Below are positions 1-62,856 of a stretch of 64,000 nt of DNA, in pieces. The position numbers and the translations under genes are program-made. The stretch covers positions 23,554 through 87,553 of IMG/VR virus record IMGVR_UViG_3300037963_003785. The stretch is one strand, 5' to 3'. This DNA is from a virus. Each line of letters starts with the position of its first letter. Positions within the stretch are counted from its first letter, which is position 1. The notes below the pieces were generated by a model, which did not search any database, was not told where the DNA came from, and saw nothing but the letters and a program-made list of their open reading frames with translations.

Positions 1-1386
1 CTCAAAATCAAAACTACCAGTATTGGTGGTTATCACAATTCGTTTACCACCACCAACATTTGAAGTTGCCATTGAAAATTCATTACCTGAACTCTGACTC
101 AAGGGACTTATTGTAATTGTATCATCTTCTTCATCGGTAATAAACATGGTCAATACAGTAGTCCCATCACTCGTATTTTCATTTACACTACCTGTATTGC
201 TAGAAATTATTGTACCACTAACACTCGTTGTTCTAAAGTTGGGTGCAGTATTTGGTGTTACTCTTATATAAATTGTTGCAGTTGAAGTTAGAATACCATC
301 AGTTACTTGTACCAAGAAAGGATGTGAATTTCCACTTGCATGATTTCCAACATCAGTATTAAAACTTGCACTTGACATTGTATTTAATGTAATAGCACCA
401 CTTCCACTATGAATTGCAAAGAAATCATCTGTATATCCACTTTGGGTTGCAAAAGACAATTCATATGAAAAGTGTTCTGCATCAGTCGTAGTTATAGTTC
501 CTACCGAAGAACCACTTACTTCAAACTCATTTATTGTAAACTGACTACTTGAAACATTTGGTGGTGTGTTTGGATAAAATACAGAATCTAAGAAATCACT
601 TACGGAACCAGAAGTACCTGGATTGAAACTAGCAGAAAATAGAGTTGGGAAATTTGTATTTAATATCCTACGATTACCATCATAAGATGCTCCGCCAGAT
701 GCTAATGATGCAGAAGTAAACTCACCACCATCAAGTTTAAGTACAGAAAAAGAACCAGTTGAAGTTGATGAACCACTAATTAAAGTTGCAGTTCCATCAG
801 AAAAACTTTCTGTGGTAAATGATTCCCTACTATCAAGTCTTGTAGCAAAACTTGCACTATCATCTGTAAAAGCACCACTAATCTCATTTGCAGTAAACGA
901 TGCAGGTAAATTTGTTAATTCACTTGCATCCCCTAATAATTTACCAAACGAACCAGTTGAAGTGGAAGAACCACTTATCATTATTGCATCTGGAAATTTT
1001 ACTAATTGTTGGTCAGCATCAGTTCTAAAAAGTATATTATTAGAATTATCCTTGATTTGAAAGTCTATATTGTTGGAACCATTATTGATGGTAAAGAGAT
1101 GTGGAGAACTATCTTTTTTATGTGCCCCAAAAAAATTAATACCACCCGCTTCTAATTGAATTCTGTCACTGGTAAAGTTGATTCGTGTATTAGCATCATC
1201 CTTGTGTGAAATGTATTCACCAACAATTAAATCATCATTGACTTGTAAATCACCACTTACTTTTCCAGAACTTACTTCTAATCTTCCAAATGAACCCGTA
1301 GACTCAGAATCTCCTGTAATACTACCACTTACAGTAAATGAACCCGTTAGTCTTGGATTTAGTTGTTTACTGTGTATTAATGCCAT
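1..1386 (-). CDS. Large virion protein with cadherin-like repeats (3' end beyond window)
   Basis: Not in ORF track because it runs off the edge. My translation from ATG 1386: MALIHSKQLNPRLTGSFTVSGS...NTPPNV..FTINE..VGTITTTDAE..FAIHSGSGAITL..VQVTDG..IRVTPNTAPNF..VNEN..ITDEEDD..GSFDFE; these are cadherin-type PxF, (I/V)xE, DxD/E and FDFE motifs. Open to position 1. Confidence 0.75.
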   Translation of the reverse strand, partial: MALIHSKQLNPRLTGSFTVSGSITGDSESTGSFGRLEVSSGKVSGDLQVNDDLIVGEYISHKDDANTRINFTSDRIQLEAGGINFFGAHKKDSSPHLFTINNGSNNIDFQIKDNSNNILFRTDADQQLVKFPDAIMISGSSTSTGSFGKLLGDASELTNLPASFTANEISGAFTDDSASFATRLDSRESFTTESFSDGTATLISGSSTSTGSFSVLKLDGGEFTSASLASGGASYDGNRRILNTNFPTLFSASFNPGTSGSVSDFLDSVFYPNTPPNVSSSQFTINEFEVSGSSVGTITTTDAEHFSYELSFATQSGYTDDFFAIHSGSGAITLNTMSSASFNTDVGNHASGNSHPFLVQVTDGILTSTATIYIRVTPNTAPNFRTTSVSGTIISSNTGSVNENTSDGTTVLTMFITDEEDDTITISPLSQSSGNEFSMATSNVGGGKRIVITTNTGSFDFE

Positions 1387-1645
1387 GTCTTAAATCTTCT
1401 TGTTTTTTCTCTAACCACCAACTTCTAATAGACTTAGAAATCTTTTTCTTGTGTTGAGTTGTTTTAGGTTGTTTCATCTTTTCGATGGTGTCCATAGTCA
1501 ACTTTCTATCAGATTGTGCACAAGATTTACATACAGAATTATTACCCACAGCTCTATCAAAGGAATCTTTTCTTGTGTAATAAATTATACGATTACAATC
1601 AGGACATTTTCTGTTTTTTCGGTTAGACCAGGTTCTTTTTCTCAT
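1367..1645 (-). CDS. Small Zn-ribbon (CPDC/CKSC) + NUMOD3-like DNA-binding protein
   Basis: CxxC..CxxC followed by basic TIEKMKQPKTTQHKKKISKS; ATG 1645 lies directly after the intergenic motif. Confidence 0.55.
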   Translation of the reverse strand: MRKRTWSNRKNRKCPDCNRIIYYTRKDSFDRAVGNNSVCKSCAQSDRKLTMDTIEKMKQPKTTQHKKKISKSIRSWWLEKKQEDLRHGINTQ

Positions 1646-1683
1646 ACATATAAATATCAAGAAATGGTAAAAGAAAAGTGGAA

Positions 1684-3246
1684 CTACGAATCAAATTTTC
1701 CCATAGCAATAATTTCATCATCACTTTCTAACGCATACCCAATAGAACCAGTATCCACGTTAAGTTGGAAAGTAGAATCGACTTGTGATATTGTCAATGC
1801 ATCATGTTCCATGTATTGACCATTTATAAAAAATACAAAATCATCTTCGGATGTACTTGTTAACCCACTTGGAGCTGATGCAGTGACTGCCGTAAAGGTA
1901 GCTTGAGCTGGGTTGACAGAGTTAGACTTTTTAACAAAAGATTTTCTAATATAAGTGTCGAAAGTACTTACACTTGTTCCGACAGCAGTACCATTCAACG
2001 TTAAACTTCCAGTTATGTCCATAGAACCACTAAACTTGTGAGTATCATCTAAAGAATTACCAAATATTGTTGAACCACTACTAAAACTTTGAGTTACTTG
2101 AGTTATAGAGGAACTAATGATTAGGTTTTCTGCTATCAAATCACCTTTTACGTGTAAATCTGTATCTATCTGTGCACCACCACCTGGATTCTCAAATATA
2201 CTAAATGAATTATTACCCACGTGAATTGCAGATGATGCAGACATATTAGCAAAAGTTACGTTGGATGTTGTTGCTACATCTTGACCTATTGATAAGGAAA
2301 ATAAACCTGCACTTGAACCATCAAAAGAATTACCAGATACAGATACACCAGTTCCACCCTCTATGTTTAAAGAATTTGCTAAAGTTACAGTAGAAATACT
2401 ACCTCTACCTTGAGTAACCCTTACTTCTTGAACTCTATCATCAATATTAACCATAGAACTAATGTTAATATCAGTCTCGTCTTTGATTACCAACCTACGT
2501 GGTGTTAAATATTTGTTTGTGGTTACCAATTCATTGAATTGTTCAGGTATCAAGTAACCTTTTAGTGTTACACTAAACTCTGTTTTAATTAATCTTTCCG
2601 CATCCGTTTCAGTTACATCATTGAATGCATCAATTGATGTCCTAAACCTCATCTTACCAGGTTCGCCCCAATAAGCACCTTCACTATATTGTATCTTTTC
2701 AACAATAGAATTCATTTGTTGGATATACGTTGTCCAAATAATAAAATCGTAAGATAGATTTACATAATCAGGTACTGCAACATTATAATATTCATTTTGT
2801 GGCATCAATCCTTGTTGAACTGAAAATCTATCATATCTTTGATTCTGAGTGTATCCTTTCTTAAAAGAATAATGTAACTTTGGCGATTCTGGATCGATTT
2901 TATCTATGGCATAAGTGTCATCTTTTTCAATAGAAGTTCTTCTAAAAACAATTAATGGTAAAATCTTTTGACCCTTATTATCATTTAAGAATCCTTTAGA
3001 CCTAATATTATACCACCTTTCAGCAGAAGCATACATCGTTGGAACTTTTATTGATTCACCATTTTCTTGTACGGATGGTTTGATAACATTTTCAAAATAG
3101 TACATAATAGCACTATCCATATCCATAAGGGTTACGGATACATTTTTTACATCATCCTTGTCTCTTCGTAAAGTTGTAGCACGTGTCTTGTCGGTTAATG
3201 CCTGTACTCTTGAACTTCTTGGAACTGGTTTAGCTCTTTTAGACAT
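1684..3246 (-). CDS. Tail terminator/sheath stabiliser (T4 gp15-like) with C-terminal fibre-like extension
   Basis: N-half KVPTMYASAERW..LPLIVFRR..VPDYVNLSYDFIIWT..QMNSIVE; lies after neck genes; Ser/Gly/Thr-rich C-half. Confidence 0.6.
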   Translation of the reverse strand: MSKRAKPVPRSSRVQALTDKTRATTLRRDKDDVKNVSVTLMDMDSAIMYYFENVIKPSVQENGESIKVPTMYASAERWYNIRSKGFLNDNKGQKILPLIVFRRTSIEKDDTYAIDKIDPESPKLHYSFKKGYTQNQRYDRFSVQQGLMPQNEYYNVAVPDYVNLSYDFIIWTTYIQQMNSIVEKIQYSEGAYWGEPGKMRFRTSIDAFNDVTETDAERLIKTEFSVTLKGYLIPEQFNELVTTNKYLTPRRLVIKDETDINISSMVNIDDRVQEVRVTQGRGSISTVTLANSLNIEGGTGVSVSGNSFDGSSAGLFSLSIGQDVATTSNVTFANMSASSAIHVGNNSFSIFENPGGGAQIDTDLHVKGDLIAENLIISSSITQVTQSFSSGSTIFGNSLDDTHKFSGSMDITGSLTLNGTAVGTSVSTFDTYIRKSFVKKSNSVNPAQATFTAVTASAPSGLTSTSEDDFVFFINGQYMEHDALTISQVDSTFQLNVDTGSIGYALESDDEIIAMGKFDS

Positions 3247-3735: not shown

Positions 3736-4917
3736 TTATCCTACGTATATTTTTAAAGGAACTTTAGCTAACTTTTCTTGTAAATACTCAGCTTCATCTT
3801 TATCTGCCTCAAGTAATGTCTTTCTACTTGAAGCCTCTAACATTTCTTTTAATTGTGATACCAATGCTTCTTTTTCCGCAATACCCTCAGACCTCAAGGT
3901 GTCACCATCCATAGTCACTTCAGCTCCAGGTATTGGTATCGAACCATACTTACTTCTAACCAAACCAAGAGTTTCTTTTGCAACTGCTAATCCATATTTT
4001 CTAATCCATTGTTTACCAACATCATTGATTGAATTATACTTCATATTGTAATAAGGTGCATTAGAGAAATCAGAAACTACGTCTTGTGAACCACTAAATA
4101 CAGTAGACGTAACACTATCTCTATCACCTCTTACTAAGTAATCAAAGTAAAGTGATTGTGTAGTTTCATTTACTGGTATTGGAAATAATCTTACTTTATT
4201 ATTCGTCAATGTAAATGAAAATGCAGACTTTCTAACTAAATCGTTAAATTCTATAGCCTGTAATCTTAACATATCCGCGTAAACAGGCATCAATAAATAC
4301 TCTGAACCAGGCATTGAACCACCACCACTATCAGGCCCCCATCCGAATCCAGATAGTAACTTTATAGCACCAATTCCTGAACCAGCATATGGGTCATAGA
4401 ATCTTGATTGTGCGGGTGATTCTTCAAAGTAAACTCTTCTTACTTCTATTGCGTTTCCACTTTCAGACTTTTCAGCCCATACTTTATTTAAATCATATTC
4501 TTGTGAACCACTAACTACGTCTATCCTACCTTTTTTGTAATCCACTCTACCACCAACACCAGCTTCCGTTCCATATTGTTCTGATAGAAATATAGTTTCA
4601 GAAAAACTTGGGTTCACTCTTTTATGTGTTAGTGAATTCGATGAACCTGTTGGTGCACCTTTTAAACTAAGTAAATTTTCTTTTATGTTGTACTGATTTA
4701 TATGAGAAGCATATTCAGTTACGGATTCTTCGAAAGCTGAATAAAAAGAACCAGATTGTAATTCTATATCTATTATAGGATATCCGAGTGTTCTTGCAGC
4801 CCAATCTGCAAATTGGTCAGCAGATGATGTGAATTCGGCCTCTGTATCATAAAATCCATAGGGTGTATCCCCTACAGAAAAAGAACTACTTCCTGGCCAT
4901 ATTGGTTTCTGAGCCAT
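3736..4917 (-). CDS. Neck protein (T4 gp13-like)
   Basis: LGYPIIDIEL near N-terminus; WIRKY.LA.AKE.LG.VRSKY..IP.PG..VTMDG..L..EG near C-terminus. Confidence 0.75.
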   Translation of the reverse strand: MAQKPIWPGSSSFSVGDTPYGFYDTEAEFTSSADQFADWAARTLGYPIIDIELQSGSFYSAFEESVTEYASHINQYNIKENLLSLKGAPTGSSNSLTHKRVNPSFSETIFLSEQYGTEAGVGGRVDYKKGRIDVVSGSQEYDLNKVWAEKSESGNAIEVRRVYFEESPAQSRFYDPYAGSGIGAIKLLSGFGWGPDSGGGSMPGSEYLLMPVYADMLRLQAIEFNDLVRKSAFSFTLTNNKVRLFPIPVNETTQSLYFDYLVRGDRDSVTSTVFSGSQDVVSDFSNAPYYNMKYNSINDVGKQWIRKYGLAVAKETLGLVRSKYGSIPIPGAEVTMDGDTLRSEGIAEKEALVSQLKEMLEASSRKTLLEADKDEAEYLQEKLAKVPLKIYVG

Positions 4918-5406: not shown

Positions 5407-7062
5407 TTACACTTTATCAACGTCAGCGACAACGACAGTACCGTAGAACTCAGGTCTTACGATTTTCTTCGCGTAACGAGTCATCACACCTTTACGTGGA
5501 GTAAAGTTGGTTGGGTCGTATACGAGAGGTGTCATAATCAACGGAACATAAGGACTATACACAGCACCAGTTTCAAGGAAGTTACTTCCTCTGAAACCAA
5601 CAAGAATTACATTCTCGAATTGGTATGGGTTCTTGTAAACAGTAAATCTGTTGTTCAAGAGACCTGCTTTTTGTACACCCATTGCATACTGTTGATTGTT
5701 GGAATCACCATTACTATCAGTTGCATATCCAGGAATAGATTCAAGGATTGTAGCAACTTCAGGACTTACTACGATGAAGTTTGCACCACCACGTAGGGTC
5801 TTCTGATGAATCGCGTTAGACACAGATTGTATCTTGTTACCAAGTGTTTGGAACCAAGTTCCTTTCACGTAGGCATTAGATTGACCAGATGATTCTACAA
5901 AAGAACCACCATCCCATTCATATCCAACCTTTGCTGACCATTTTTCTTCTTTAGCGTTAGCATTTAAACGAATCATGTCAAGGATTTCTAAGTCGATTTC
6001 CATTGCGATGTATTCTGATAACATAGAAGTCAATTCAGCTTCTGCATCAACTGAGTGATAAGCATTAAGGTCTTGAGCTAACTCAGGAGTCCATACTGCT
6101 TTTAACTTACGAGTTTTTGCAACAATTGGAATTGAACGCATCTGAATATCAATTTCAGGTATTCCGACATCTCCCTCACCAGAGAAACCACCATCGGTAG
6201 CAGCTGCTGGAGAAGACTCGAAATCACCACGAGTGATATCAGTTGGTTGTTTATGGTACTTAACGGTGTAGGTTACATCACCTGCAGGGCCGTTAGCGTC
6301 AAACGTTGTTGTAGAGTCTGGTGCCACAATAAACTGAATGTGTGTACCAGCCGCTGGGTTTGAAGTACCATCGGAATCTACCCTCTTAGTGTAAGCAGGA
6401 TAGTAAGTAGAAAGTGAACCACTACCAGAACCACTAATTGAAAATGCTCTCGCACCATTCAAATCAGCAGCTGATAATTCACTATGTGCGAATCTTAAGA
6501 AACGTAGTGATGATAGAGAACCACTCAATGATGGTTCGAAATCAATCATAGCGTTTGTTGCTGATCCAGAAGTCGCTGTAGTTGTAGTTGCACTTACGTC
6601 ATTTATGGAATATCCGAATTTACCTGCTCCATAAAGACCACCACTTGGGTCACCAGAAGAAGAAGTGTTACCAAACACGTCTGCTCTTTGAGTGTGACCA
6701 GGTTGAGCTGAACCATACTTGAAATCAAGATAGAAGATTAGTCCAGATGGTAAGTTCATAGGCTGTACAGAAACGAATTCCTGTGAAGCTAATGAACCAA
6801 AGATTCTACGAATTAATGGAAGTGCAACACCGCTCCACTCTTCAGAGTTAGCAGTTGTAGACACTTTAGAAGCCTCATCAATTAACTGACGAGCCTGATT
6901 TTCCAATAGTGTAGCCATACCATGTTTTCTGTTCTCCTCATCTATACCTTCTAAAAGGCCAGTAGGTTCCCATTTCTCAACAAGTTTCTTGGTCTGTTCA
7001 CGAAGCTCTCTTTGCGGATTATATCCATCCATGATATTTTGGATTTCATTATAATTGCTCAT
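5407..7062 (-). CDS. gp23: Major capsid protein (T4 gp23 family)
   Basis: VSVQPMNLPSGLIFYL, AKTRKLKAVWTPELAQDLNAYHSVDAEAEL, YSPYVPL, FTPRKGVMTRYA; SD GGAG. Confidence 0.97.
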   Translation of the reverse strand: MSNYNEIQNIMDGYNPQRELREQTKKLVEKWEPTGLLEGIDEENRKHGMATLLENQARQLIDEASKVSTTANSEEWSGVALPLIRRIFGSLASQEFVSVQPMNLPSGLIFYLDFKYGSAQPGHTQRADVFGNTSSSGDPSGGLYGAGKFGYSINDVSATTTTATSGSATNAMIDFEPSLSGSLSSLRFLRFAHSELSAADLNGARAFSISGSGSGSLSTYYPAYTKRVDSDGTSNPAAGTHIQFIVAPDSTTTFDANGPAGDVTYTVKYHKQPTDITRGDFESSPAAATDGGFSGEGDVGIPEIDIQMRSIPIVAKTRKLKAVWTPELAQDLNAYHSVDAEAELTSMLSEYIAMEIDLEILDMIRLNANAKEEKWSAKVGYEWDGGSFVESSGQSNAYVKGTWFQTLGNKIQSVSNAIHQKTLRGGANFIVVSPEVATILESIPGYATDSNGDSNNQQYAMGVQKAGLLNNRFTVYKNPYQFENVILVGFRGSNFLETGAVYSPYVPLIMTPLVYDPTNFTPRKGVMTRYAKKIVRPEFYGTVVVADVDKV

Positions 7063-28361: not shown

Positions 28362-28379
28362 ATTCTTTCCTCTTTAAAT

Positions 28380-33512: not shown

Positions 33513-33647
33513 AAAAAAATGCCTCCCAAATAAAGTAAGACATTCTGTATTGAATGCCTCCCATAGTTTATAGTCTTATTGTGGTGGGTTAGGTCTTTCA
33601 GGATTGGCTACCCGAGTTATCACCACTTGACTGTATATAAATATATA
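33513..33647 (-). promoter_or_regulatory. Structured 5' leader of gmd operon
   Basis: TATTTATA at 33636-33643, nested stems, 11-nt direct repeat TGGGAGGCATT (33553-33563 and 33518-33528). Confidence 0.6.
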
Positions 33648-47198: not shown

Positions 47199-47299
47199 TT
47201 ATATATAAACGGGTCTTTTCTTTTCATTTTTCTGATTCGTTGTTTGAATTTGTACCACCTATATATTTTGAAGTACAACAATTTAATTTTTCCAAACAT
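47195..47299 (-). CDS. Unannotated 34-aa basic peptide ending DPFIYK
   Basis: GAGGAG SD; MFGKIKLLYFKIYRWYKFKQRIRKMKRKDPFIYK; stop overlaps the next ATG (ATGA); fills the gap exactly. Confidence 0.7.
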   Translation of the reverse strand: MFGKIKLLYFKIYRWYKFKQRIRKMKRKDPFIYK

Positions 47300-47302
47300 A
47301 AA

Positions 47303-54939: not shown

Positions 54940-55169
54940 TATTTTACTTTTTGTCTCTCTGAATCTCTAGCTGGTCTATCAGGTGAACCTTGTACATTAC
55001 CCTTACTTAATTGTAAGAACTCATGTAAATACCACTCTAATTTACTCGACCATTCAGCATCAATGATGTCAAGAAAAAATGATTCTATACTGACCATAGA
55101 ATTTGATATACTTTCTAAGGCCTCAACTCCTCTTTCATCAAGTGTTTTTGTTGTAGCTTTTTTAGCCAT
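54939..55169 (-). CDS. Small hypothetical protein
   Basis: 76 aa, tightly coupled to neighbours, SD GGAG. Confidence 0.55.
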   Translation of the reverse strand: MAKKATTKTLDERGVEALESISNSMVSIESFFLDIIDAEWSSKLEWYLHEFLQLSKGNVQGSPDRPARDSERQKVK

Positions 55170-55170
55170 T

Positions 55171-56013
55171 TTATTTCTCCAATTCCTTTAATCTTTTTAA
55201 GATGTCCTCTTCGAGAACCCTTTCCATTAAAAACTTTTTATCTTTTGGTGATAAAGTGTCAAGTTGTTTTTTCATACTATTATAATACAACTCGTGTTCT
55301 TTTTTAAGTGCCTCTGATTTCTTTTCTGATTCCCAATATCTTTTTTCATACTCAACTCTTTCTGCATCACAACCATCTCTCTGTTCTTGTTTTGCATACA
55401 TTTCTTTTTCAAAGTTTACTCGTTCTTCGTCTGCTCTATCTTTATCTTTTGTTGCTTGCCAAAACTTTTGTTCGAAGTCAACTGCCATTTCTTTTGCCTG
55501 TTTTATTTCTCTCTCCAAATCCTTTCTCATTTGCCAATATTTTTCTTCTAATTGTTGAGATTTTTCTTGTTCAAGATACATATGTTTTTCAAAATAAACT
55601 TTAGACTCATCATACTCATCAATTCTTTTTACAGCGTCCCAATACTTTGATTCATACCTTGTAGCTTCACCATCAAGTATACCATGATTTTCTTGTGCCT
55701 GATACATTTCATCTTTTAGGCTAACTCTTTCCTTTTCATTTTCATAGTAATGGTCTAATCTTTCCAAAACAGTTTGTTGTTTCTCATCTAATATTTTAGA
55801 AACATTTAAAACTTTTCCAAATCCATGTGTCAATGAATCAGTCAAAAAATTAACTTTATTTTTTTCTAAAAGTTTTGCTAAAAAATTAAGTAAGTAAACA
55901 CTAGCCTTTGATTTGTTTTCAAGTAACGGAACAACATTAAGTAATACACTACTAAGTTCCTCAAGTGCCAGAACTTGTCTCTTAGTAAACTTCATATTAT
56001 AACTCCAATCCAA
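55171..56013 (-). CDS. Coiled-coil repeat protein
   Basis: ~21-aa units alternating (E/H)MY and K(Y/F)W. Confidence 0.6.
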   Translation of the reverse strand: MDWSYNMKFTKRQVLALEELSSVLLNVVPLLENKSKASVYLLNFLAKLLEKNKVNFLTDSLTHGFGKVLNVSKILDEKQQTVLERLDHYYENEKERVSLKDEMYQAQENHGILDGEATRYESKYWDAVKRIDEYDESKVYFEKHMYLEQEKSQQLEEKYWQMRKDLEREIKQAKEMAVDFEQKFWQATKDKDRADEERVNFEKEMYAKQEQRDGCDAERVEYEKRYWESEKKSEALKKEHELYYNSMKKQLDTLSPKDKKFLMERVLEEDILKRLKELEK

Positions 56014-57698
56014 TGATGGTCGTTATCGAAATCATAACTATCCACTAATTTATATTTTACACTATTAAGTCCTATTTGATTTGTTTTAAGTCTACCAGTA
56101 ATGACCTCATCATAAAAAATAGATTTATTTAGTTCTAAATCAGGTTCACTTTTATCACCATACTCACCTTTAAGATACCTTTGAACTATGGTATCATCAC
56201 CCTCATGTACTAAAGATTTATACCTACCACCTTTCTTTTCAACCAAGTCTATAGCAGTAAAGGTATTGATAAAGTCTTTGTTATAATACTGATTTGTCGC
56301 ATACCTACCATGATTATAAAAAGGTAAAACATAATTACGAAATGTTTCTATATCTTCCTTTGTAGTGCTCTTATCAGTAGATTTATATAGTCCCCTTTTT
56401 CTGACTGGTAAATCAGTTTTAGCATCTGGAAAAAGATTTTCTTTTTTTAACTGAGACTCGTCAAAATTAGATACTTGTGCTTTTAATGATTTTTTAGTAT
56501 CATCAAAAATAATATTATGATATCCATTCTTAAATGAAAAATAAGCAACAGGTGGACTAATGGTATTATATGTTTTTTTAGGATTTTTTGATTTGACATT
56601 AGGGTTACTAACACCTCTTTGATAAATCGTACCAATCTCGTTGGGTAAAAGAGGATAATCAAAAATAGAAACAGAAGATATTCTACCATCCATACAATTT
56701 GTTTCACTATCACTCGAACCAATAAAATAGTGTTTACCCCTATAGTCTCTTAATTTGGCTTTACCAAACTCTGACTTACCATCGAAGTCTTTTGCCACAA
56801 TCCCATTGATATATAATTTTATATCACCTATCTTTTTATCAACAACACAACAAACATTATACCATTGAAACGTAACTCTCCTTGACTTTACAAAATAGTA
56901 ATTATCATCCATGTCCCAACAACCAACTCTAAAAGCACCATTACCCTCATCATTCATATATTCTATTCCAGTATGAAAACCTGGTCTCTGTACTATTCCA
57001 TACGAATCTCCGTCTTCAAGTGGTATTGACTTTGGATAAACCCAACAAGAAAAAGTAAAGCTATCACTTGTTATATTATCAATATGAGGATTTGTTGGTA
57101 AAGTAGTATATGTACTTTTACCATCAAAATCTAATGAGTACAATTCTTTTACGTCTGTTGCATTTATGTTAGGTCTAACAATCACATCATCCAATGGATA
57201 TCTTGGTTGTTTAGTAACATTAAATATATCGATATGTGATTCAAGATTTATATCACTTTCTCTGATTCTAAATAACAAATCTAAGTCTTCTACTCCCCAT
57301 CCCCAATATTCATTTGAGTATCCATTAATTTTTTTAAAGTCCTCTCGTGTTATCAAAAACACACCACCGATATATTCTACAAAAGGTAATTGATAGTTAT
57401 GTGCCTCCACCTCACCAGCAATATGCCGAGGTGTATGTGGATATGAATAATCACAATCATCACTCATAGGTAACATATCAACATCATGAAAACAAAAATA
57501 ATCATACTCATCAGGTATTTCTTTACAAGCAACATTTATAAGTTTACCTCTATTGAATGGTCTATCATCCCTTTGTTCAATTACAAATATTTTATAATCA
57601 ATATCTTTATCTTTCATAAACTCATCAAAGTGTGGTATGAATATATCTAATTGTTTCCTTCTATCCCTATAAGGAACTATGACAGCCATCTTACTCAT
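55992..57698 (-). CDS. GT7 galactosyltransferase-like with inserted LamG domain
   Basis: VPYRDR, FNRGKLIN, FHDVDMLP, WGWGVEDLDL; insert FTFSCWV..WYNVCCV..LYING..MDGRISSV. Confidence 0.85.
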   Translation of the reverse strand: MSKMAVIVPYRDRRKQLDIFIPHFDEFMKDKDIDYKIFVIEQRDDRPFNRGKLINVACKEIPDEYDYFCFHDVDMLPMSDDCDYSYPHTPRHIAGEVEAHNYQLPFVEYIGGVFLITREDFKKINGYSNEYWGWGVEDLDLLFRIRESDINLESHIDIFNVTKQPRYPLDDVIVRPNINATDVKELYSLDFDGKSTYTTLPTNPHIDNITSDSFTFSCWVYPKSIPLEDGDSYGIVQRPGFHTGIEYMNDEGNGAFRVGCWDMDDNYYFVKSRRVTFQWYNVCCVVDKKIGDIKLYINGIVAKDFDGKSEFGKAKLRDYRGKHYFIGSSDSETNCMDGRISSVSIFDYPLLPNEIGTIYQRGVSNPNVKSKNPKKTYNTISPPVAYFSFKNGYHNIIFDDTKKSLKAQVSNFDESQLKKENLFPDAKTDLPVRKRGLYKSTDKSTTKEDIETFRNYVLPFYNHGRYATNQYYNKDFINTFTAIDLVEKKGGRYKSLVHEGDDTIVQRYLKGEYGDKSEPDLELNKSIFYDEVITGRLKTNQIGLNSVKYKLVDSYDFDNDHHWIGVII

Positions 57699-58527
57699 TT
57701 ATCAACCACCCCTCATACTTTGAAAGTAAGTGAGACCACTCTTTGTAGTCATCGTAATTATTACTTACTTTCTGTAACATAAATCTTTCATCCTCTGTAT
57801 CTATCTTTCCAAATGTATTCATGTAAATTTCAAGATTATTATATTCTCTTTCAAAGTGTTTCTCAACTACACCATAACCTTTTTTCTGCTTAGTATTATT
57901 TTGTACAACTCTATCTGTCCACCTAAAATGATGGTGTTGCATAATATCACTATAAAAACCATCTTCATGATAAGAGTAATTTGATTTATGATTTCCATGA
58001 CCCACTTGTCCATTTTTCAATAACGATACTTTTGTAGGACAAGCTGGATACCCTCTAAGTTCTATGTTGACATCTCCCGCCAAATTATATTTGTCCCAAA
58101 TATCATCATCCAACTTTAGATTAGTGAAATCACCATTCTTATCGATTCGGTCAATTAACATTCCCATAACACAATTAACATTATACTCCTCACACTCTTC
58201 AATAATGTCTCTTGGGTCTTTACTAAACAAAATCAGTTCATCACAATCTACAGGTATCCACCACTCGTCCTTTTTTAAATTCATTGTTTGATTAAACATA
58301 GACGCCTTAAAACTTTCATTCCAAGAATGATTGTCTCTTTCGTCTCTATGTAATTTTAAATTAAATTTATCTAAAACTTCAAGTATGTAATCTATTTCTA
58401 TTTCTTCACTACTACCCCACAAATTAAAAAATATATCATCAACAAATTCAGAGTAGTGTTTTAAAAAATGATATAGTACTTCAGGATTGATAGTACCAAC
58501 TGTAACTAAATTTATTTTCTTCTTAAT
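57691..58527 (-). CDS. GT-A glycosyltransferase (GT2/GT92-like), probable ATT start
   Basis: WWIPVDCDEL, LIDR, HHFRW; frame is open upstream of 58422 to AGGAG-7nt-ATT, giving (M)KKKINLVTVG..HFLKHY. Confidence 0.65.
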   Translation of the reverse strand: MKKKINLVTVGTINPEVLYHFLKHYSEFVDDIFFNLWGSSEEIEIDYILEVLDKFNLKLHRDERDNHSWNESFKASMFNQTMNLKKDEWWIPVDCDELILFSKDPRDIIEECEEYNVNCVMGMLIDRIDKNGDFTNLKLDDDIWDKYNLAGDVNIELRGYPACPTKVSLLKNGQVGHGNHKSNYSYHEDGFYSDIMQHHHFRWTDRVVQNNTKQKKGYGVVEKHFEREYNNLEIYMNTFGKIDTEDERFMLQKVSNNYDDYKEWSHLLSKYEGWLINE

Positions 58528-59282
58528 AACGTGACTCCTGTTGAACTTGGTTTTTCTCTTATCTGGCCATAATCAAAGAAATTAAACACTTGCCATTCGT
58601 CATCTTGTTCTAATTCTTTTATTAACCTTATAGGGCCACTTACATCATCATATGGTTCTCTCGTTCCATCTTTATGGTCTTGTGGTATTGCATTAGTATC
58701 TACATAATGTGAGTCTGTATCATGTATGGTTATTATACCATGTTCAGATAATAATGTTGAATAATTTTCAAAGTCCCACTTTACTTGTTCGTAACTATGG
58801 TCTGCATCAATATGTAAATAATCTATTTTAAATTCTTGTTTTACAAAGAAATTATAGAATGCATCTTCCGTTGTGGTCTTTAAAAATCTTGGTTGAAATT
58901 GTAATCTAAAAAAAGAATCTTTTTTGTCCCAATCGGTAACTCCATTAACACCATTACATGCATCAACAATAATCGTAGTACCTGTTTCTGCAAACTCATA
59001 TTGTTCTTGACCACCAACTGTTTGGTCTTTCCATAACTCTAATCTAGCCTGTGACATTATACGTGGTACGAATCCACCACCACTACCAAGACAAACACAA
59101 TTTCTTGCCTTCATATAATATACTAAAGAAAAGTACATCATACCAGCACCCATGTGATAGTCTGTTGCACCATGTGACCAACGATATAAAACTGGCTCAT
59201 AAATAGTTTCACCAGTCTTTTCGTCTAGCTTATGATTATTTGTTATATATGATTTAATCCATTCTGTATTTAAAACCGACAT
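58512..59282 (-). CDS. Class I SAM methyltransferase (Methyltransf_24-like)
   Basis: CLGSGGG, LHIDADHSYE, IHDT. Confidence 0.85.
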   Translation of the reverse strand: MSVLNTEWIKSYITNNHKLDEKTGETIYEPVLYRWSHGATDYHMGAGMMYFSLVYYMKARNCVCLGSGGGFVPRIMSQARLELWKDQTVGGQEQYEFAETGTTIIVDACNGVNGVTDWDKKDSFFRLQFQPRFLKTTTEDAFYNFFVKQEFKIDYLHIDADHSYEQVKWDFENYSTLLSEHGIITIHDTDSHYVDTNAIPQDHKDGTREPYDDVSGPIRLIKELEQDDEWQVFNFFDYGQIREKPSSTGVTLLRRK

Positions 59283-59336: not shown

Positions 59337-60803
59337 TTAAATCGAGTTAGTCCCTTTGTTATGAGAAAGAACATCAGCTGCAAAATAAACATCCTCAGTC
59401 TCAACGTTTATGTTTACAACCTCATACTCTCCATACCCATTAAAATCTTTACTTGTAATTTCTTCCACACTCAAATCTCTATTTAACAACGAGTCTCCTA
59501 CTTTTAATTGGTCAGCTATTATCCACTGCCACCAACCATCACGTAAAGTCCACATATAATGTTGACCACTAACTTTAACTCTGTTGTTTATATTCCAATA
59601 ATGTGTAACATAATCATACCAAATGTCTTTTATAGTTACATTTGCAGAACTAAATGAAGTTCCTTCAGCAGAACTATGTTCTTTCCACTCTTCACCTAAA
59701 TCCTCGTCTGGTAAGCCTGGAATAGTTGCACCCAATATTGTATCATTTACATCTAAGTCTTCTATATTAGAAACCGTTCCGTCTGATTTTGATACTTCAG
59801 TTCCAACAAGAAAACATGCTACTGATTGACCACCATATGTATCAAGAACAGTTATGTTCTTAGTTACTGCAGTATTGTATCGAGTAGCATGGTCGTTAAA
59901 TCCATCACTCTGTCCATCTTCTGCAAACTTACCACTTATCTGTACACTCTGATTGTTAAATTGTGGCCCTGCCCATCTTCTAAAAATAAAATGGTCTGCA
60001 AATATATCACCAGAAGCACTTCCTGTTCTTTCTAATTTAACTTGAACAGTTGTACTTCCACTTACGTGAAAATTATCAATAACATATAAAGAACCATCGG
60101 TCTCGTCTTGAGAAGCTGCATCTAATCTAACGAGTTTGTTGGAATCAGAAGCACTGACTACTAAAGTCAAATCGTTTTTAGAAGTATCATTATACGTTCT
60201 AACTTCTACTTTGTATGTAGAATATGCAGTAGTGGTAAAACTCTGAGTTATGAAAGCTCCATTTGCAGTAAACTTAACACACGTTGCAGAACCTGAACCA
60301 GCTAAATCAGTACCAGGATCGCCATCCGAATATGTATGTATTCCTATACCCGATGAAGTAAAGTAACTATCTTCAATACTACCAGTAATAAAATCTTTGT
60401 TAGTTATTAAGTTATCGTCATAGGTAGTTCTTGCATCTTCAATAGCTCCAGCAGTATATGTTGCCTCTTGTGTTGTAGTTCCACCCATATTAAATAATGT
60501 AGAATTATTTGTCGTCCACGTAAAGTTGTCATTAAGACTACCTATCTTGTCTTGAAATCTACTACCAGAATTTGTAAAGGTCATTCCATAAACTTCAGAA
60601 GTTTGTTCATCAACAAATTGAAATCCTGATAGAGAGTTATCAACCGTATCTATTGAAAATTCTGACATCTTTACATTAGAACCAGCAGATGATACACCTG
60701 CAGCGTTACTTAGACCAAACTCCGTTGTGTAGTCTGATGCAGAAGAACTGACCGCTCTTCTTAATTTTCCTAATGATAAATTTTGACCTGATGTTGTTGA
60801 CAT
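59337..60803 (-). CDS. Virion protein with C-terminal Hint domain (59358-59816)
   Basis: S/T/G-rich beta N-part, then CFLVGTEV..IEDL.V.D..SGQH..LKVGD..VNINVE..YFA..LSHN-KGTNSI. Confidence 0.8.
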   Translation of the reverse strand: MSTTSGQNLSLGKLRRAVSSSASDYTTEFGLSNAAGVSSAGSNVKMSEFSIDTVDNSLSGFQFVDEQTSEVYGMTFTNSGSRFQDKIGSLNDNFTWTTNNSTLFNMGGTTTQEATYTAGAIEDARTTYDDNLITNKDFITGSIEDSYFTSSGIGIHTYSDGDPGTDLAGSGSATCVKFTANGAFITQSFTTTAYSTYKVEVRTYNDTSKNDLTLVVSASDSNKLVRLDAASQDETDGSLYVIDNFHVSGSTTVQVKLERTGSASGDIFADHFIFRRWAGPQFNNQSVQISGKFAEDGQSDGFNDHATRYNTAVTKNITVLDTYGGQSVACFLVGTEVSKSDGTVSNIEDLDVNDTILGATIPGLPDEDLGEEWKEHSSAEGTSFSSANVTIKDIWYDYVTHYWNINNRVKVSGQHYMWTLRDGWWQWIIADQLKVGDSLLNRDLSVEEITSKDFNGYGEYEVVNINVETEDVYFAADVLSHNKGTNSI

Positions 60804-60814
60804 AATAATAAATA

Positions 60815-61825
60815 TTAAGAATTGTAAATCTGAAGATATTGGTTGACCCATTCTTCTTTGTTATCATACTTTTTTAAAAAACTTCTAAGACTTTCCAAAA
60901 TATCTCCTCTATCTTTTTCAGACAAACTTTCTATTTCCTTTAATCGTTTATCAAACTCTTCTTTACCAAATGCTCTAAATGGATACGAATATTCTTTTAA
61001 CCAATCGTGTGCTAATATAGGAATCTTTCCATAATCAACAGCTTGAAAAATAGAATATCCAAATGGTTCGTTTAGGTGACAAGAATGTGAAATACCCCAA
61101 TCTTGTTTTTTGAAAAATCTATGAACGTTATCATATTTGTATTGATAAACCCTCGTGTATTCAAATCTATATCCTTGTTTTTTCCAATAATTAAAATCAC
61201 CTAAGTCTGTTAATACTTGACTATCTACACCATCTAAATAGTGAACTCCCTTTCTTGTTTCTACTCGTGCAGCAAAACCAACTCTGTTATTCATACAAGT
61301 TGGTAAATTATTTTTAAATTCATAAAAATTAGGTATATCAATTATATTATCAACCTTATCATGTAATGGTGTTTTATCTAAACCAATCCATATATTATGT
61401 TCAGATAATTCTGCAACTTCCCTTTCCCATTCTAATGATGAAGCAAAATGTAATGGATTTTTAATACCCATTTGATATCCTGCCTTCATTGATAAGTCCA
61501 ATGAAACATGAATAACATTTGAATATATCTTATCCTTATTTTTGTATATTGATTTATGTGGTGTATAATATCCATGTAGAATATTAATCCTACGTGCATT
61601 TCCAATTATGTTATCAAACTCCTTTGGTTCATCCCCTTGCCAAATTATTTCAAGATTATCTATTTTATTTCTCTGAAACGTAGCAGGTCTAACTCGATGA
61701 ATCATAAGTTTAGACGGATGTTTTAGTTTTGGTGCAACATTATCAATCCAATGATTTACCCAAACATCAGAACCACCATAAATTAAATCTCCACCACCTG
61801 TGGAATAGTAAACATCGTAACTCAT
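60815..61825 (-). CDS. GT-B (GT4-like) glycosyltransferase
   Basis: GGSDVWV, GFAARVETRKG, EPFGYSIFQAVDYGKIP. Confidence 0.75.
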   Translation of the reverse strand: MSYDVYYSTGGGDLIYGGSDVWVNHWIDNVAPKLKHPSKLMIHRVRPATFQRNKIDNLEIIWQGDEPKEFDNIIGNARRINILHGYYTPHKSIYKNKDKIYSNVIHVSLDLSMKAGYQMGIKNPLHFASSLEWEREVAELSEHNIWIGLDKTPLHDKVDNIIDIPNFYEFKNNLPTCMNNRVGFAARVETRKGVHYLDGVDSQVLTDLGDFNYWKKQGYRFEYTRVYQYKYDNVHRFFKKQDWGISHSCHLNEPFGYSIFQAVDYGKIPILAHDWLKEYSYPFRAFGKEEFDKRLKEIESLSEKDRGDILESLRSFLKKYDNKEEWVNQYLQIYNS

Positions 61826-62856
61826 TATTTATCATGTACGTTGTGTGCACAATATCCATCTGCAAAAAAGACATCAACATCCTCAACGTTTAAATTTATT
61901 GTTTCACACTCTTCTTCAATAAAGTCTATCGTGTGAACATATTCTAAAGTATTATTTGATTTAAAAATTTCATCACCTATTAATAAATTTCTAACTGTTT
62001 GAAACATATAAGAACCACTTCTATGTATTAACAATGGATGTTCATATGTAACTTGTAAAACACCATTAATGTGATAATAAGAATCAAACCAATCGTAGTA
62101 AATATTATATACGGTTGTTGAATCAAAATATCCATTTAATTGTGTATCGTTCCAAGCCTTCCATAAATCTCCAGAGTCAAAGTCAAGTGGATAAGAAGCT
62201 CTGTAACTATATAGTTTATCTCCAATATCCACGTCTTCAATATTTTTGTGAGTTAATCCATCTTCCATAAGTATTTTAGTACCAGCTAAAAAACATCCCC
62301 CACCACCATAAGTATCATATTCTGCACCATAAAACTCATCAAATCTTATAGGATGAAATGCTGATGGAAGTGAACCAGTTACAGGCCCACCTGCATACCA
62401 ATTCCAATTCTTTCTATTAACATCAGAGATAGTAGAAAAGTCTTGATACAAATCGTGTATGTCGGAATTAGCAGTATTATAACTAACTCCTTTCTCAACA
62501 TTAATATCAGATATACTCATTGATGTATCTTGTACAAGTATTGGTTGAATTATACAACCTTGACCAGGTGCATCAGATATACCTATAGATTCATGTGCAC
62601 CTGCATAATAAGTACCACCCGTAGCTGTCCACGAACCAGAAGTATAATGTCCCCACGAACCAGAAGAATAATCAGAACCTGAATTAGTAATTGTTGCAGA
62701 CGTAATTACTCCATTCGTAGAACCAATTGTTCCTGTAAATCCACTACCTTGTCCTTTTGAACGCATGGTAATGTTATATGTCTGTCCATGTCCGTATCCA
62801 GAACCACTCGCGAGGATAACTAAACCACCGACTTTAAAACCACCTTGTAAGGCCAT
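61825..62856 (-). CDS. Tail-fibre-associated protein with C-terminal Hint domain (61840-62295)
   Basis: SISDINVE.G..FDEFYG, GGGG-CFLAGTKILM.DG..IEDV.IGD..VTYEHP..NLNVE..FFADG..AHN-VHDK. Confidence 0.8.
   Translation of the reverse strand: MALQGGFKVGGLVILASGSGYGHGQTYNITMRSKGQGSGFTGTIGSTNGVITSATITNSGSDYSSGSWGHYTSGSWTATGGTYYAGAHESIGISDAPGQGCIIQPILVQDTSMSISDINVEKGVSYNTANSDIHDLYQDFSTISDVNRKNWNWYAGGPVTGSLPSAFHPIRFDEFYGAEYDTYGGGGCFLAGTKILMEDGLTHKNIEDVDIGDKLYSYRASYPLDFDSGDLWKAWNDTQLNGYFDSTTVYNIYYDWFDSYYHINGVLQVTYEHPLLIHRSGSYMFQTVRNLLIGDEIFKSNNTLEYVHTIDFIEEECETINLNVEDVDVFFADGYCAHNVHDK

What the first reader, a model, noticed from the sequence alone, without database searches (positions are those of the whole stretch)
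1..62856. Candidate phage virion O-glycosylation system: [S/T]-[G/A/S]-S motif in outer virion proteins plus a large glycan island
Seen: predicted exterior proteins are dense in SGS/TGS/SAS/SSS/TAS. I count about 17 in the 462 visible residues of the cadherin protein (including ISGSSTSTGSF twice) and 4 in the 105-aa ORF at 18755. There are many more in the neck, gp15-like and both Hint proteins. In the MCP they are confined to the central insertion (TSSS, TSGS, LSGS, SGSGSGS). The enzymes, terminase, protease and internal Lys-rich proteins are nearly free of them. Known: the gp23 insertion domain is surface-exposed; animal proteoglycan linkers are built on Ser-Gly, with a GT7 enzyme adding galactose; virion glycosylation is documented in some mycobacteriophages and giant viruses. 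Inference: the tripeptide is a sequon for the adjacent phage GTs, giving a glycan-coated virion.
Basis: partly seen in the sequence, partly recalled or inferred. Interest (0 to 1): 0.9.

Follow-up and report, generated by a model that had tools for sequence, protein, structure and literature searches.

The report
Ser/Thr-Gly/Ala-Ser tag on phage virions
The outward-facing particle proteins of this uncultured T4-like jumbo phage carry the ordered tripeptide Ser/Thr-Gly/Ala-Ser several times too often; it may be a sugar-attachment tag, but close relatives without the neighbouring sugar-gene island carry it just as often, and no chemistry shows what it is.

Summary
The real motif is [S/T]-[G/A]-S. 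In 13 motif-rich proteins SGS occurs 59 times against 8.8 expected, TGS 26 against 6.3 and SAS 17 against 6.0. SSS, TSS and the reversed SGT and TGT are not enriched. The motif is order-specific, uses 40 codon combinations, and usually has hydrophobic neighbours. It sits in the sheath, fibres, neck, gp15-like protein, MCP insertion and Hint-type proteins. About 75 relatives share it, and its last Ser is more conserved than other Ser residues.

The 36-kb glycan island is real. It holds three GT7 enzymes with inserted LamG domains inside a cassette that is syntenic in 61 of 79 related loci.

Five contigs of the same lineage have no GT7 and an empty island slot, yet they keep the motif at 2.1 to 3.3 times expectation. 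All five are only 32-55% complete.

My best reading, at about 0.4, is that the motif is a clade-wide acceptor tag read by an enzyme outside this window, with the island as a variable accessory. A plain structural turn is the main rival, at about 0.3.

The scan has reported this motif on at least ten other genomes. My paper searches found no description of it.

The parts
1..1386 (-). N-terminal 462 aa of a 1252-aa cadherin-domain fibre-like protein, which continues beyond the window start. It is the densest motif carrier.
   Evidence: Cadherin PF00028 at E 1.3e-12 on the full protein and 7.4e-5 on the visible part. 17 [ST][GAS]S in the visible part. 46 against 19.4 in the full length, reached by 0 of 2000 shuffles.
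1684..3246 (-). gp15-like tail-sheath stabiliser with a long C-terminal extension that carries all six [ST][GA]S sites (residues 336-501).
   Evidence: PF16724 at E 8.4e-7, residues 59-185. Site positions. Third-position Ser conserved 0.93 against 0.34 for other Ser in 34 relatives. Homologues pooled: 584 observed against 118.5 expected.
3736..4917 (-). Neck / head-tail adaptor protein with 4 [ST][GA]S sites.
   Evidence: phrog_211 head-tail adaptor Ad2 at E 1e-10. Homologues: 325 observed against 56.4 expected. Motif Ser conserved 0.73 against 0.41.
5407..7062 (-). Gp23-type major capsid protein. All motif sites lie in the variable segment, residues 133-216.
   Evidence: PF07068 at E 1.4e-78. 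Sites. Conserved sites in 67 non-identical relatives, where TGS, SGS, TAS, SAS and SSS interchange and the last Ser is kept. T4 gp23 aligns only at profile positions 77-122 and 263-517, so the sites fall in the unaligned insert.
18755..19072 (-). 105-aa ORF of unknown role with 4 motif sites.
   Evidence: 4 against 0.9; P 0.015 global and 0.0065 local. No Pfam family. Weak homologue in G003 at 34% identity.
22638..58422 (-). Glycan island of about 36 kb (34 ORFs). It holds DegT, five SDR epimerase/dehydratases, RmlC-like, a split ThDP E1 pair, PhyH, two DUF5672 proteins, a carbamoyltransferase, two radical SAM proteins, methyltransferases, GT2-like proteins and three GT7 proteins.
   Evidence: Pfam scans. 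No protein with 3 or more hydrophobic segments. The slot is empty in G001-G005.
50538..52097 (-). Radical-SAM-like protein, a conserved neighbour of the GT7 genes.
   Evidence: PF04055 at E 5.2e-5, below the Pfam cut-off. Homologue present in 60 of 80 GT7 loci.
52097..53548 (-). GT7a: beta4GalT-like catalytic domain with a LamG/ConA-like domain.
   Evidence: PF13733, PF02709 and PF13385 all over cut-off. DVD and WDWGMEDDD motifs kept.
53545..54939 (-). GT7b: beta4GalT-like catalytic domain with a LamG domain.
   Evidence: DID and WGWGFEDDD motifs kept.
55992..57698 (-). GT7c: beta4GalT-like catalytic domain with a LamG domain inserted before the C-terminal GT7 segment.
   Evidence: Matches PDB 3lw6, beta4GalT7, at E 1.2e-38 over residues 2-152; the tail at 536-556 aligns weakly to residues 239-259 of the chain. 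1031 unnamed metagenomic homologues at E <= 1e-10.
57691..59282 (-). GT2_4-like ORF (57691-58422) and methyltransferase (58512-59282), both conserved members of the cassette.
   Evidence: PF13704 at E 1.3e-3, below cut-off; PF13578 at E 8e-11. Each has a homologue in 61 of 80 GT7 loci.
59337..60851 (-). 504-aa Ser/Thr-rich protein, motif-rich.
   Evidence: 10 against 3.4, P 0.001. No Pfam family.
60815..61825 (-). Conserved 336-aa protein next to motif-rich genes. It is a possible glycosyltransferase, not established.
   Evidence: Homologue in 47 of 80 GT7 loci. Atlas feature hits are auto-named 'CAP10 glycosyl transferase' (0.99) and DNA alpha-glucosyltransferase (0.97). No Pfam family, no PDB match. 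hhalign to the GT4 pair gives only 4.6% probability over a 29-column EPFG...A...G.P stretch.
61825..62856 (-). 343-aa motif-rich protein with a weak Hint match.
   Evidence: 6 against 1.4, P 0.003. PF05203 at E 5.3e-4, below cut-off.

Best explanation
The ordered tripeptide [S/T]-[G/A]-S, usually with a hydrophobic residue on each side, is a selected tag on the outward-facing virion proteins of this clade of Far-T4-type jumbo phages.

The most likely reading is that the tag marks the Ser where a phage enzyme attaches a sugar in the cytoplasm before assembly. The enzyme that reads the tag would belong to the lineage's core genes and lies outside this window. One candidate is the pair of GT4-type transferases found in the complete relatives.

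The 36-kb island in the window would then be a strain-variable accessory. It makes unusual NDP-sugars and, through three LamG-bearing beta4GalT-like GT7 enzymes and further transferases, methyl-, carbamoyl- and radical-SAM enzymes, extends or decorates the glycan. Alternatively it serves only the adjacent fibre.

Shown: the enrichment, order-specificity and conservation of the tag; the content and synteny of the island; and the independence of the tag from the island.
Inferred: that any sugar is attached, which residue carries it, and which enzyme reads the tag.
For: 1. Order-specific excess over global and local shuffles: SGS 6.7/5.3 times and TGS 4.2/3.7 times expectation, against SGT 0.5 and TGT 0.9. 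TGS and SGT have the same composition, yet the counts are 26:7 here, 55:24 in G007 and 37:20 in G008, and 197:81 in G001-G005.
2. The selection acts on the protein. There are 40 different codon triplets among 116 sites, and the commonest DNA word occurs 30 times, always in frame on the coding strand.
3. Purifying selection on the tag. The third-position Ser is conserved 0.93 against 0.34 for other Ser (gp15-like), 0.73 against 0.41 (neck) and 0.89-1.0 at three MCP sites against 0.54. The two chance hits in the portal are conserved only 0.03 and 0.13. At the MCP sites S/T and G/A/S interchange while the last Ser stays.
4. The carriers are outer parts by homology: sheath, fibre, neck, gp15-like protein and the MCP insert. 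In pooled homologues the terminase, protease and portal run at or below 0.34 times expectation.
5. Among my controls, an excess that strongly prefers Ser at the third position occurs mainly in this clade. Phages outside it show 0.9-1.6 times expectation (X1, ACG-2014b, G010, G011, LR756508). immuto and Mel-JY01 show a symmetrical [ST]G[ST] excess of about 2 times.
6. Every relative with enough sequence carries phage glycosyltransferases. G007 and G008 have the island plus a GT4 pair. G003 and G005 have a GT2-DUF5672 / sulfotransferase / GT9-FkbM-carbamoyltransferase cluster inside the tail module.
7. The island has no membrane export parts. In 35 of 61 cassette loci a motif-rich ORF lies within 10 kb, against 0 of 18 loci that hold only a GT7 domain.
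Against: - No chemistry exists.
- The hydrophobic-SGS-hydrophobic context fits a simple strand-turn-strand element.
- Non-structural proteins do not avoid the tag (G007 O/E 1.01), so a promiscuous cytoplasmic enzyme that reads only three residues is unlikely.
- G007 has the island and the GT4 pair, yet its MCP has only 2 sites against 1.3 expected.
- The GT4 pair was not found in our own contig, in its 106-kb twin G009, or in G001, G002, G004 and G006. All of these are fragments.
- immuto and Mel-JY01 have the pair but no preference for Ser over Thr at position 3.
- RM378 shows the Ser preference on small counts (17 against 7.7; reversed 1 against 3.3), but only the first member of the pair matched there.
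- The clades are related, so the contrast between phages with and without the tag may rest on one evolutionary event.
Confidence: 0.4

Rival explanations
1. Structural motif only. Hydrophobic-[S/T]-[G/A]-S-hydrophobic is a tight turn between two beta strands. It is favoured in the beta-sandwich and fibre modules that this clade uses for outer virion domains, and it spreads by module shuffling among fibre genes. Nothing is attached. The island serves another purpose.
For: - Hydrophobic residues are enriched at -1 (0.40-0.64 against a background of 0.30) and at +1 (0.42-0.48).
- Repeated modules such as ISGSSxSTGSFG recur in several fibre proteins.
- A generic [ST]G[ST] excess of 1.5-2 times is also seen in ACG-2014b, immuto and Mel-JY01.
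- The tag persists where the island is absent.
- Enzymes do not avoid the tag.
- The first Ser and the Gly show a codon bias (AGT 67%, GGT 82%), which may reflect shared ancestry of modules.
Against: - A turn should tolerate Thr at the third position, as it does in the outgroups (SGT 3.0 times in immuto, 2.75 times in Mel-JY01). In this clade SGT is 0.6-1.3 times while SGS is about 4 times expectation.
- Gly interchanges with Ala and Ser at fixed MCP sites, which does not suit a turn that needs Gly.
- The sites appear together in unrelated folds: capsid insert, neck, sheath, gp15 extension and fibres.
- They are among the few invariant residues of an otherwise variable MCP segment.
Confidence: 0.3
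2. One reading: the tripeptide is the sequon of the adjacent island enzymes (GT7 and the others), which coat the virion.
For: - The island lies in the structural region beside motif-rich genes.
- The cassette is syntenic with a giant motif-rich fibre.
- The GT7 enzymes carry lectin-like LamG domains and keep their catalytic motifs.
- The island has no export machinery.
Against: - G001-G005 have no GT7 and an empty slot, but an equal or stronger tag.
- By homology GT7 enzymes transfer sugar to a sugar, not to a protein (plus general knowledge of beta4GalT).
- Phages with a GT7 domain alone (G010, G011) show no excess: 0.89 and 1.21 times expectation.
Confidence: 0.1
3. The tag is read by something other than a glycosyltransferase. 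This could be another Ser modification such as phosphate, sulfate or acyl, or a chaperone, decoration protein or assembly partner that docks on it.
For: The strict Ser at position 3 and its conservation point to a side-chain function. A sulfotransferase and carbamoyltransferases sit in the tail module of G003 and G005.
Against: No kinase or comparable enzyme was seen in the window. The enzymes near the carriers are overwhelmingly sugar-related.
Confidence: 0.1
4. This concerns the island only. The island does not act on virion proteins; it modifies phage DNA or the host envelope.
For: Phage glycosyltransferases that hypermodify DNA are well documented (10.1101/2023.12.21.572611, passages read). 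One weak atlas neighbour of ORF 60815 is the DNA alpha-glucosyltransferase family.
Against: - The complete, island-bearing G007 has no ThyA-family hydroxymethylase, and no Tet/JBP match was found in 5 records. The Tet/JBP search had no positive control.
- The DNA glycosyltransferases described in that paper are JGT-like GT-A and T4-BGT-like GT-B enzymes; the paper has no occurrence of GT7 or lectin.
- The island has no flippase, polymerase or polyprenyl-phosphate transferase-like membrane protein.
Confidence: 0.1

Closest known systems
Virion glycosylation of mycobacteriophages by phage-encoded glycosyltransferases (Freeman et al. 2023). I saw it only as cited in PMC12619734, passage read; the paper itself is not held.
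   Same: A tailed phage encodes its own glycosyltransferases, and its capsid and tail proteins are the proposed targets.
   Different: There, glycans sit at the C-termini of the capsid and tail-tube subunits (passage in PMC12619734) and were shown chemically. Here the candidate sites are internal ordered tripeptides in many proteins; the MCP sites are at residues 133-216 of 551. The enzymes are different, the host is unknown, and nothing has been shown chemically.
Animal GT7 beta-1,4-galactosyltransferases, especially beta4GalT7 of the proteoglycan linker (PDB 3lw6, 4irp)
   Same: The catalytic domains match at E 1.2e-38 and keep the DxD and WGWGxED motifs.
   Different: Each phage enzyme has a LamG/ConA-like domain of about 200-350 aa inserted before the C-terminal GT7 segment. 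The three lie in tandem in a phage cassette. The proteoglycan acceptor (Ser before Gly with acidic flanks, from recall) does not match the tag, where the conserved Ser follows Gly and the flanks are hydrophobic.
Polypeptide GalNAc-transferases (GT27: a GT-A catalytic domain plus a lectin domain); from recall
   Same: A GT-A transferase is joined to a carbohydrate-binding-type domain, an arrangement that allows dense, successive glycosylation of one substrate.
   Different: The lectin fold differs (ricin-type there, LamG here) and its position differs (C-terminal there, inserted here). No sequence membership was tested.
GtfA/GtfB priming of serine-rich-repeat adhesins, and the autotransporter heptosyltransferases Aah/TibC; from recall. 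The GtfA/GtfB lead came from earlier scan note e1-5642645.
   Same: Both are cytoplasmic O-glycosylation of Ser in short repeated contexts of beta-rich surface proteins. A pair of GT4-type genes is conserved in the complete relatives, and a GT9-like domain occurs in the tail-module cluster of G003.
   Different: Neither the pair nor the GT9 fusion is in this window or contig. No homology to GtfA/GtfB or Aah was tested.
Self-encoded glycosylation of giant-virus capsids and fibrils (review PMC9614988; search listing and start of abstract only)
   Same: A virus carries its own NDP-sugar pathways and transferases instead of using the host's.
   Different: Those are eukaryotic viruses with unrelated capsid proteins. 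No shared sequon is known to me.

Membership tests
GT7 (beta4GalT family), for ORFs 52097, 53545 and 55992 | Pfam Glyco_transf_7N and Glyco_transf_7C both above their gathering scores | tested here: met
   Scores of 64.9/64.6, 73.3/79.5 and 83.8/71.1 bits against cut-offs of 27/23.
GT7 (beta4GalT family) | Metal-binding DxD motif and the WGWGxED(D) loop | tested here: met
   DVD/DID and WGWGVEDLD, WGWGFEDDD, WDWGMEDDD in the alignment of the three paralogues and against 3lw6. The names of the motifs are from recall.
GT7 (beta4GalT family) | Contiguous catalytic domain without an inserted module | tested here: not met
   PF13385 Laminin_G_3 lies at residues 191-358. The GT7 C-terminal segment resumes only at 536-556.
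GT7 (beta4GalT family) | Beta-1,4 transfer of Gal or GalNAc to a sugar acceptor | not testable with these tools
   This needs an enzyme assay.
Phage virion glycosylation of the mycobacteriophage type | Glycan demonstrated on virion proteins | not testable with these tools
   No isolate and no mass spectrometry are available. Paper searches found nothing for this clade.
Phage virion glycosylation of the mycobacteriophage type | Acceptor at the C-terminus of the capsid and tail-tube subunits | tested here: not met
   The MCP sites are internal, at residues 133-216 of 551. The tail-tube homologue (genome 13865-14356) has no [ST][GA]S site (one search lists only ORFs that have one).
Proteoglycan-linker type sequon (Ser-Gly, acidic flanks) | Acceptor Ser precedes Gly and acidic residues flank it (from recall) | tested here: not met
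   The last Ser, after Gly/Ala, is the conserved one. In exterior homologues GSG is only 2.0 times expectation against 5.6 times for SGS. The flanks are hydrophobic.
   0 of 5 long contigs of the lineage hold GT7 and the slot is empty in all 5, yet the excess is 2.1-3.3 times expectation. Caveat: the contigs are 32-55% complete.
Tag read by the conserved GT4 pair (lead from earlier scan notes) | The pair is present wherever the tag is present and absent where it is absent | tested here: inconclusive
   The pair is in G007 and G008, and in immuto and Mel-JY01. Only the first member matched in LR756508 and RM378. Of the 50,697 phage records, the first member matched 8 and the second 10, and both matched only in immuto and Mel-JY01; the hits outside the Far-T4 group (Pontimonas, Arthrobacter) were weak and partial. 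The pair is absent from G010 and G011, which lack the tag. It was not found in the fragments G000/G009, G001, G002, G004 and G006. immuto and Mel-JY01 have the pair without the preference for Ser over Thr.
Far-T4 phage group (Roux et al. 2015, PMC4360716, passages read) | The Gp23-type MCP groups with RM378 and environmental Far-T4 sequences rather than with T4 or cyanophage MCPs | tested here: met
   The best cultured MCP matches are Mel-JY01 at 51%, immuto at 50% and RM378 at 45%, against 31% for cyano-T4. No tree was built.

The most novel reading that the evidence does not exclude
Hydrophobic-[S/T]-[G/A]-S-hydrophobic is a true Ser-specific O-glycosylation sequon of a very abundant clade of aquatic jumbo phages, read in the cytoplasm by a lineage-core transferase. 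Hot-spot islands such as this 36-kb one, with its LamG-inserted beta4GalT-like trio, radical SAM enzymes and branched-sugar pathway, are swapped between strains to vary the glycan built on that common anchor. That would give phage particles interchangeable 'glycan serotypes'.
Probability: 0.3. Interest if true: 0.85.

Novelty: new variant of a known kind. Interest (0 to 1): 0.6.

Why it matters
If the tag is a sequon, it would be the first defined acceptor motif for virion glycosylation in tailed phages. It would apply to a group that is very common in marine and freshwater metagenomes: 1031 GT7-LamG homologues at E <= 1e-10 and 114 MCP relatives in IMG/VR.

It would turn the question 'why do aquatic phages carry large sugar-gene islands?' into a direct experiment: mass spectrometry of a few predicted peptides. 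It would also bear on phage adsorption, particle stability, grazing and recognition.

Even if the tag proves to be structural, two results stand. The island is a movable insert at a fixed hot spot beside the giant fibre. The GT7 enzymes carry an inserted lectin-like domain.

Tried and rejected
- Avoidance of the tag in non-target proteins. Pooled homologues looked depleted (SGS 0.23-0.44 times expectation), but other tripeptides scatter just as widely there. In complete genomes the non-structural genes are not depleted (G007 1.01, G008 0.59). I dropped this argument.
- A DNA-level cause. The commonest word occurs only in frame on the coding strand (30 of 30) and never on the other strand. Rejected.
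- ORF 60815 as a GT-B transferase. There is no Pfam family and no PDB match for the profile (best E 0.037, an antibody). hhalign to the GT4 pair gives 4.6% probability. Only automatic atlas names support it. Left as a lead.
- A shift from Thr to Ser at orthologous sites between outgroups and the clade. The alignments of sheath, neck and MCP show mostly clade-specific sites and no clear shift.
- GT7 in cultured phages. tblastn against 50,697 records gave one weak hit, to the LamG part only.
The placement of the MCP sites in the 'insertion' rests on the alignment gap against T4 gp23 and on recalled domain limits.
- Literature. Searches found no paper on this motif, on GT7 in phages or on Far-T4 glycosylation. 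PMC4360716 has one occurrence of 'glyco', in polyethylene glycol. Supplementary files were not consulted. Freeman et al. 2023 is not held.
- Rows dropped. L001 and L081-L084, which are the same or a near-identical phage, were left out of the pooled homologue counts. Only ORFs of 60-80 aa or more were analysed, and overlapping shorter ORFs were discarded.

Full report
WHAT THE WINDOW IS

All genes lie on the minus strand and the G+C content is about 32%. The window is bases 23554-87553 of an 87.5-kb virus contig, which CheckV puts at about 50% complete.

Pfam and PHROGs name the following parts:
- A T4-type morphogenesis module: Gp23 MCP at 5407-7062, S77 prohead protease, Gp20 portal and TerL. 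It also holds a gp15-like protein, a neck adaptor and, just upstream of the window, a tail sheath and a tail fibre.
- An island of about 36 kb, 22638-58422, devoted to sugar chemistry.

The closest cultured MCPs are Microcystis phage Mel-JY01 (51%), Flavobacterium phage immuto (50%) and Rhodothermus phage RM378 (45%). That places the phage in the Far-T4 group of Roux et al. 2015 (PMC4360716, passages read). Complete relatives in IMG/VR are 214 and 237 kb long, so this is a piece of a jumbo phage.

THE OBSERVATION

With 2000 shuffles per protein the excess is strong for the cadherin-like protein: 46 against 19.4 over its full 1252 aa, with 0 of 2000 shuffles reaching it, even when residues are shuffled only within 20-residue blocks. 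It is also strong for the sheath, two fibre proteins, ORF 59337 and ORF 61825. It is only marginal for the MCP and gp15-like proteins taken alone.

Pooling 13 motif-rich proteins and splitting the motif shows what is really enriched:

| tripeptide | observed | expected |
|---|---|---|
| SGS | 59 | 8.8 |
| TGS | 26 | 6.3 |
| SAS | 17 | 6.0 |
| SSS | 15 | 12.2 |
| TSS | 6 | 8.3 |
| SGT | 3 | 6.1 |
| TGT | 4 | 4.5 |

The tag is therefore [S/T]-[G/A]-S, and it is directional. These 13 proteins were picked for having the motif, so the ratios are somewhat inflated. The TGS-against-SGT contrast does not depend on composition and does not suffer from this.

The 116 sites use 40 different codon triplets. 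The commonest DNA word occurs only in frame on the coding strand. The selection is therefore on the protein. Hydrophobic residues are enriched at -1 and +1.

RELATIVES

IMG/VR gave 114 MCP relatives, of which 80 were kept, at 52-100% identity. It gave 138 GT7 relatives, of which 80 were kept. After I dropped the five near-identical loci, pooled homologues show a two-way split.

Exterior proteins are enriched:
- MCP: 350 observed against 106 expected.
- gp15-like: 584 against 118.
- Neck: 325 against 56.
- Cadherin-like: 352 against 96.
- Over the exterior set, SGS is 5.6 times expectation, TGS 3.85 times and SGT 1.06 times.

Interior and packaging proteins are not: portal 0.34 times, TerL 0.09 times and protease 0.

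In an alignment of 67 non-identical MCPs the sites sit at fixed columns inside the variable segment. There TGS, SGS, TAS, SAS and SSS replace one another while the last Ser stays. Five of the 13 invariant columns of that segment are motif residues.

The third-position Ser is more conserved than other Ser in every exterior family tested. The two motif hits in the portal are not conserved. T4 gp23 aligns only on either side of the segment that holds the MCP sites.

THE ISLAND

Three tandem genes combine Glyco_transf_7N and 7C with a LamG/ConA-like domain. The best solved relatives are beta4GalT7 (E 1.2e-38) and beta4GalT1. The DxD and WGWGxED motifs are kept in all three, and the LamG domain lies before the final GT7 segment.

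The family has 1031 homologues at E <= 1e-10. None carries a functional name, and almost all come from metagenomes, including Tara samples. It has no counterpart in 50,697 cultured-phage records.

Around the GT7 genes lies a conserved cassette, in this order: large motif-rich fibre, ORF 60815, methyltransferase, GT2_4-like ORF, GT7c, GT7b, GT7a, radical SAM, sugar genes. It is present in 61 of 79 loci. Of those 61, 35 have a significantly motif-rich ORF within 10 kb, against 0 of 18 loci that hold only a GT7 domain.

No island protein looks like a flippase, polymerase or polyprenyl-phosphate transferase. The complete, island-bearing G007 has no ThyA-family gene, and no Tet/JBP match was found, although that search lacked a positive control. 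A cytoplasmic protein target is therefore more plausible than the host envelope or DNA, but this is inference.

DOES THE TAG DEPEND ON THE ISLAND?

Five long contigs of the same MCP lineage (G001-G005, 57-101 kb, 32-55% complete) have no GT7 match. I fetched all five.

In each of them the homologue of ORF 20170 lies next to, or a few small ORFs away from, the giant fibre. In G007, G008 and our phage that fibre is separated from the ORF 20170 homologue by the island. The island is therefore an insert at a hot spot, and the slot is empty in 5 of 5 of these contigs.

Their tag is as strong as ours:
- [ST][GA]S at 2.1-3.3 times expectation, SGS at 3.8-4.2 times and TGS:SGT at 197:81.
- MCP with 4-6 sites against 1.2-1.4 expected, and neck with 4-6 against 0.7-0.8.

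Two unrelated phages with a GT7 domain only (G010, G011) show no excess, at 0.89 and 1.21 times expectation. The tag therefore does not track GT7. The caveat is that G001-G005 are incomplete.

WHAT DOES IT TRACK?

Controls without the cassette fall into two groups:
- Phages outside the Far-T4 group (Xanthomonas X1, Synechococcus ACG-2014b, G010, G011) and the huge phage LR756508 show 0.9-1.6 times expectation and no direction.
- immuto and Mel-JY01 show about 2 times expectation, but symmetrically: SGT is as enriched as SGS.

The TGS:SGT counts are 118:51 in three cassette-bearing genomes against 49:58 in six cultured controls (odds ratio 2.7, P 9e-5). The former are one clade, so this may reflect a single evolutionary event.

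Following a lead from earlier scan notes, I found a pair of GT4-type genes with a GT2 gene in G007 that is conserved in G008. In the cultured collection both members match only immuto and Mel-JY01. The first member alone also matches LR756508 and RM378. The remaining hits (one Pontimonas phage; five Arthrobacter phage records) are weak and partial.

The pair is absent from G010 and G011. It was not found in our contig, in its 106-kb twin, or in G001, G002, G004 and G006, all of which are fragments. This fits a lineage-core priming enzyme but does not establish one.

G003 and G005 also carry a different enzyme cluster inside the tail module. It holds a GT2-DUF5672 fusion, a sulfotransferase, three carbamoyltransferases and a GT9-FkbM-carbamoyltransferase fusion.

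WEIGHING

In favour of a modification tag:
- Strict Ser at position 3, where outgroups accept Thr.
- G/A/S interchange at position 2.
- Appearance in several unrelated folds at once.
- Strong conservation inside variable loops.
- Phage transferases in every well-sampled relative.

In favour of a plain turn:
- Hydrophobic flanks.
- Repeated fibre modules.
- No avoidance in enzymes.
- A generic twofold [ST]G[ST] excess in other phages.

I put the tag reading at about 0.4, with the island as an accessory rather than the reader of the tag.

My searches found no paper that describes the motif or GT7 in phages. The scan itself has reported the same motif on at least ten other genomes with similar verdicts. 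Those are AI notes, not independent evidence.

Noticed in passing
window 22638-58422 and its flanks; G001-G005 (L195-L216): The whole island is an insert at a hot spot between the homologue of ORF 20170 and a giant fibre gene. The slot is empty in 5 of 5 long contigs of the same lineage and filled in G007 and G008.
   Followed up: yes
motif sites throughout the contig: The first Ser of [ST]GS is encoded by AGT in 67% of cases (32% elsewhere in the same proteins). The Gly is encoded by GGT in 82% (60% elsewhere). The last Ser uses the background codon mix. This is unexplained; shared ancestry of modules or a codon-pair effect are possible.
   Followed up: partly
L196:940-12175 (G003) and G005 39039-50295: A second, different enzyme cluster lies inside the tail module of relatives. 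It holds a GT2+DUF5672 fusion (812 aa), a sulfotransferase-like protein, three carbamoyltransferases and a 1331-aa GT9+FkbM+carbamoyltransferase fusion.
   Followed up: partly
L175:13104-16961 (G007) and G008 145825-149617: A pair of GT4-type genes plus a GT2 gene is conserved between the two complete relatives. Among 50,697 cultured phage records both members match only immuto and Mel-JY01. The first member alone also matches LR756508 and RM378. The other hits (one Pontimonas phage; five Arthrobacter phage records) are weak and partial.
   Followed up: partly
window 20170-22602: This 810-aa protein has a weak cytidylyltransferase-like match. Its homologues in relatives range from 1000 to 1642 aa.
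   Followed up: no
window 63311-63999: Two adjacent ORFs are very glycine-rich (26% and 33% Gly) and have no motif sites.
   Followed up: no
window 59337-62856: Two motif-rich proteins flank ORF 60815. One has a weak Hint match (PF05203, E 5.3e-4, below cut-off). The same trio recurs in L019 and L072.
   Followed up: no
protein P0002: A 506-aa GT7 protein 66% identical to GT7c is filed at NCBI under the ostracod Cyprideis torosa, on a 16.9-kb contig. It is probably phage DNA inside an animal assembly.
   Followed up: no
own contig 1638-3060 (upstream of the window): PhoH and ThyX (Thy1) genes lie beside the baseplate genes. The contig has a run of 10 N at base 7655.
   Followed up: no
G008 62016-62972: A 318-aa ORF with 7 hydrophobic segments lies directly beside the G008 homologue of the GT9-FkbM-carbamoyltransferase fusion. 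That other cluster could therefore act at the membrane.
   Followed up: no
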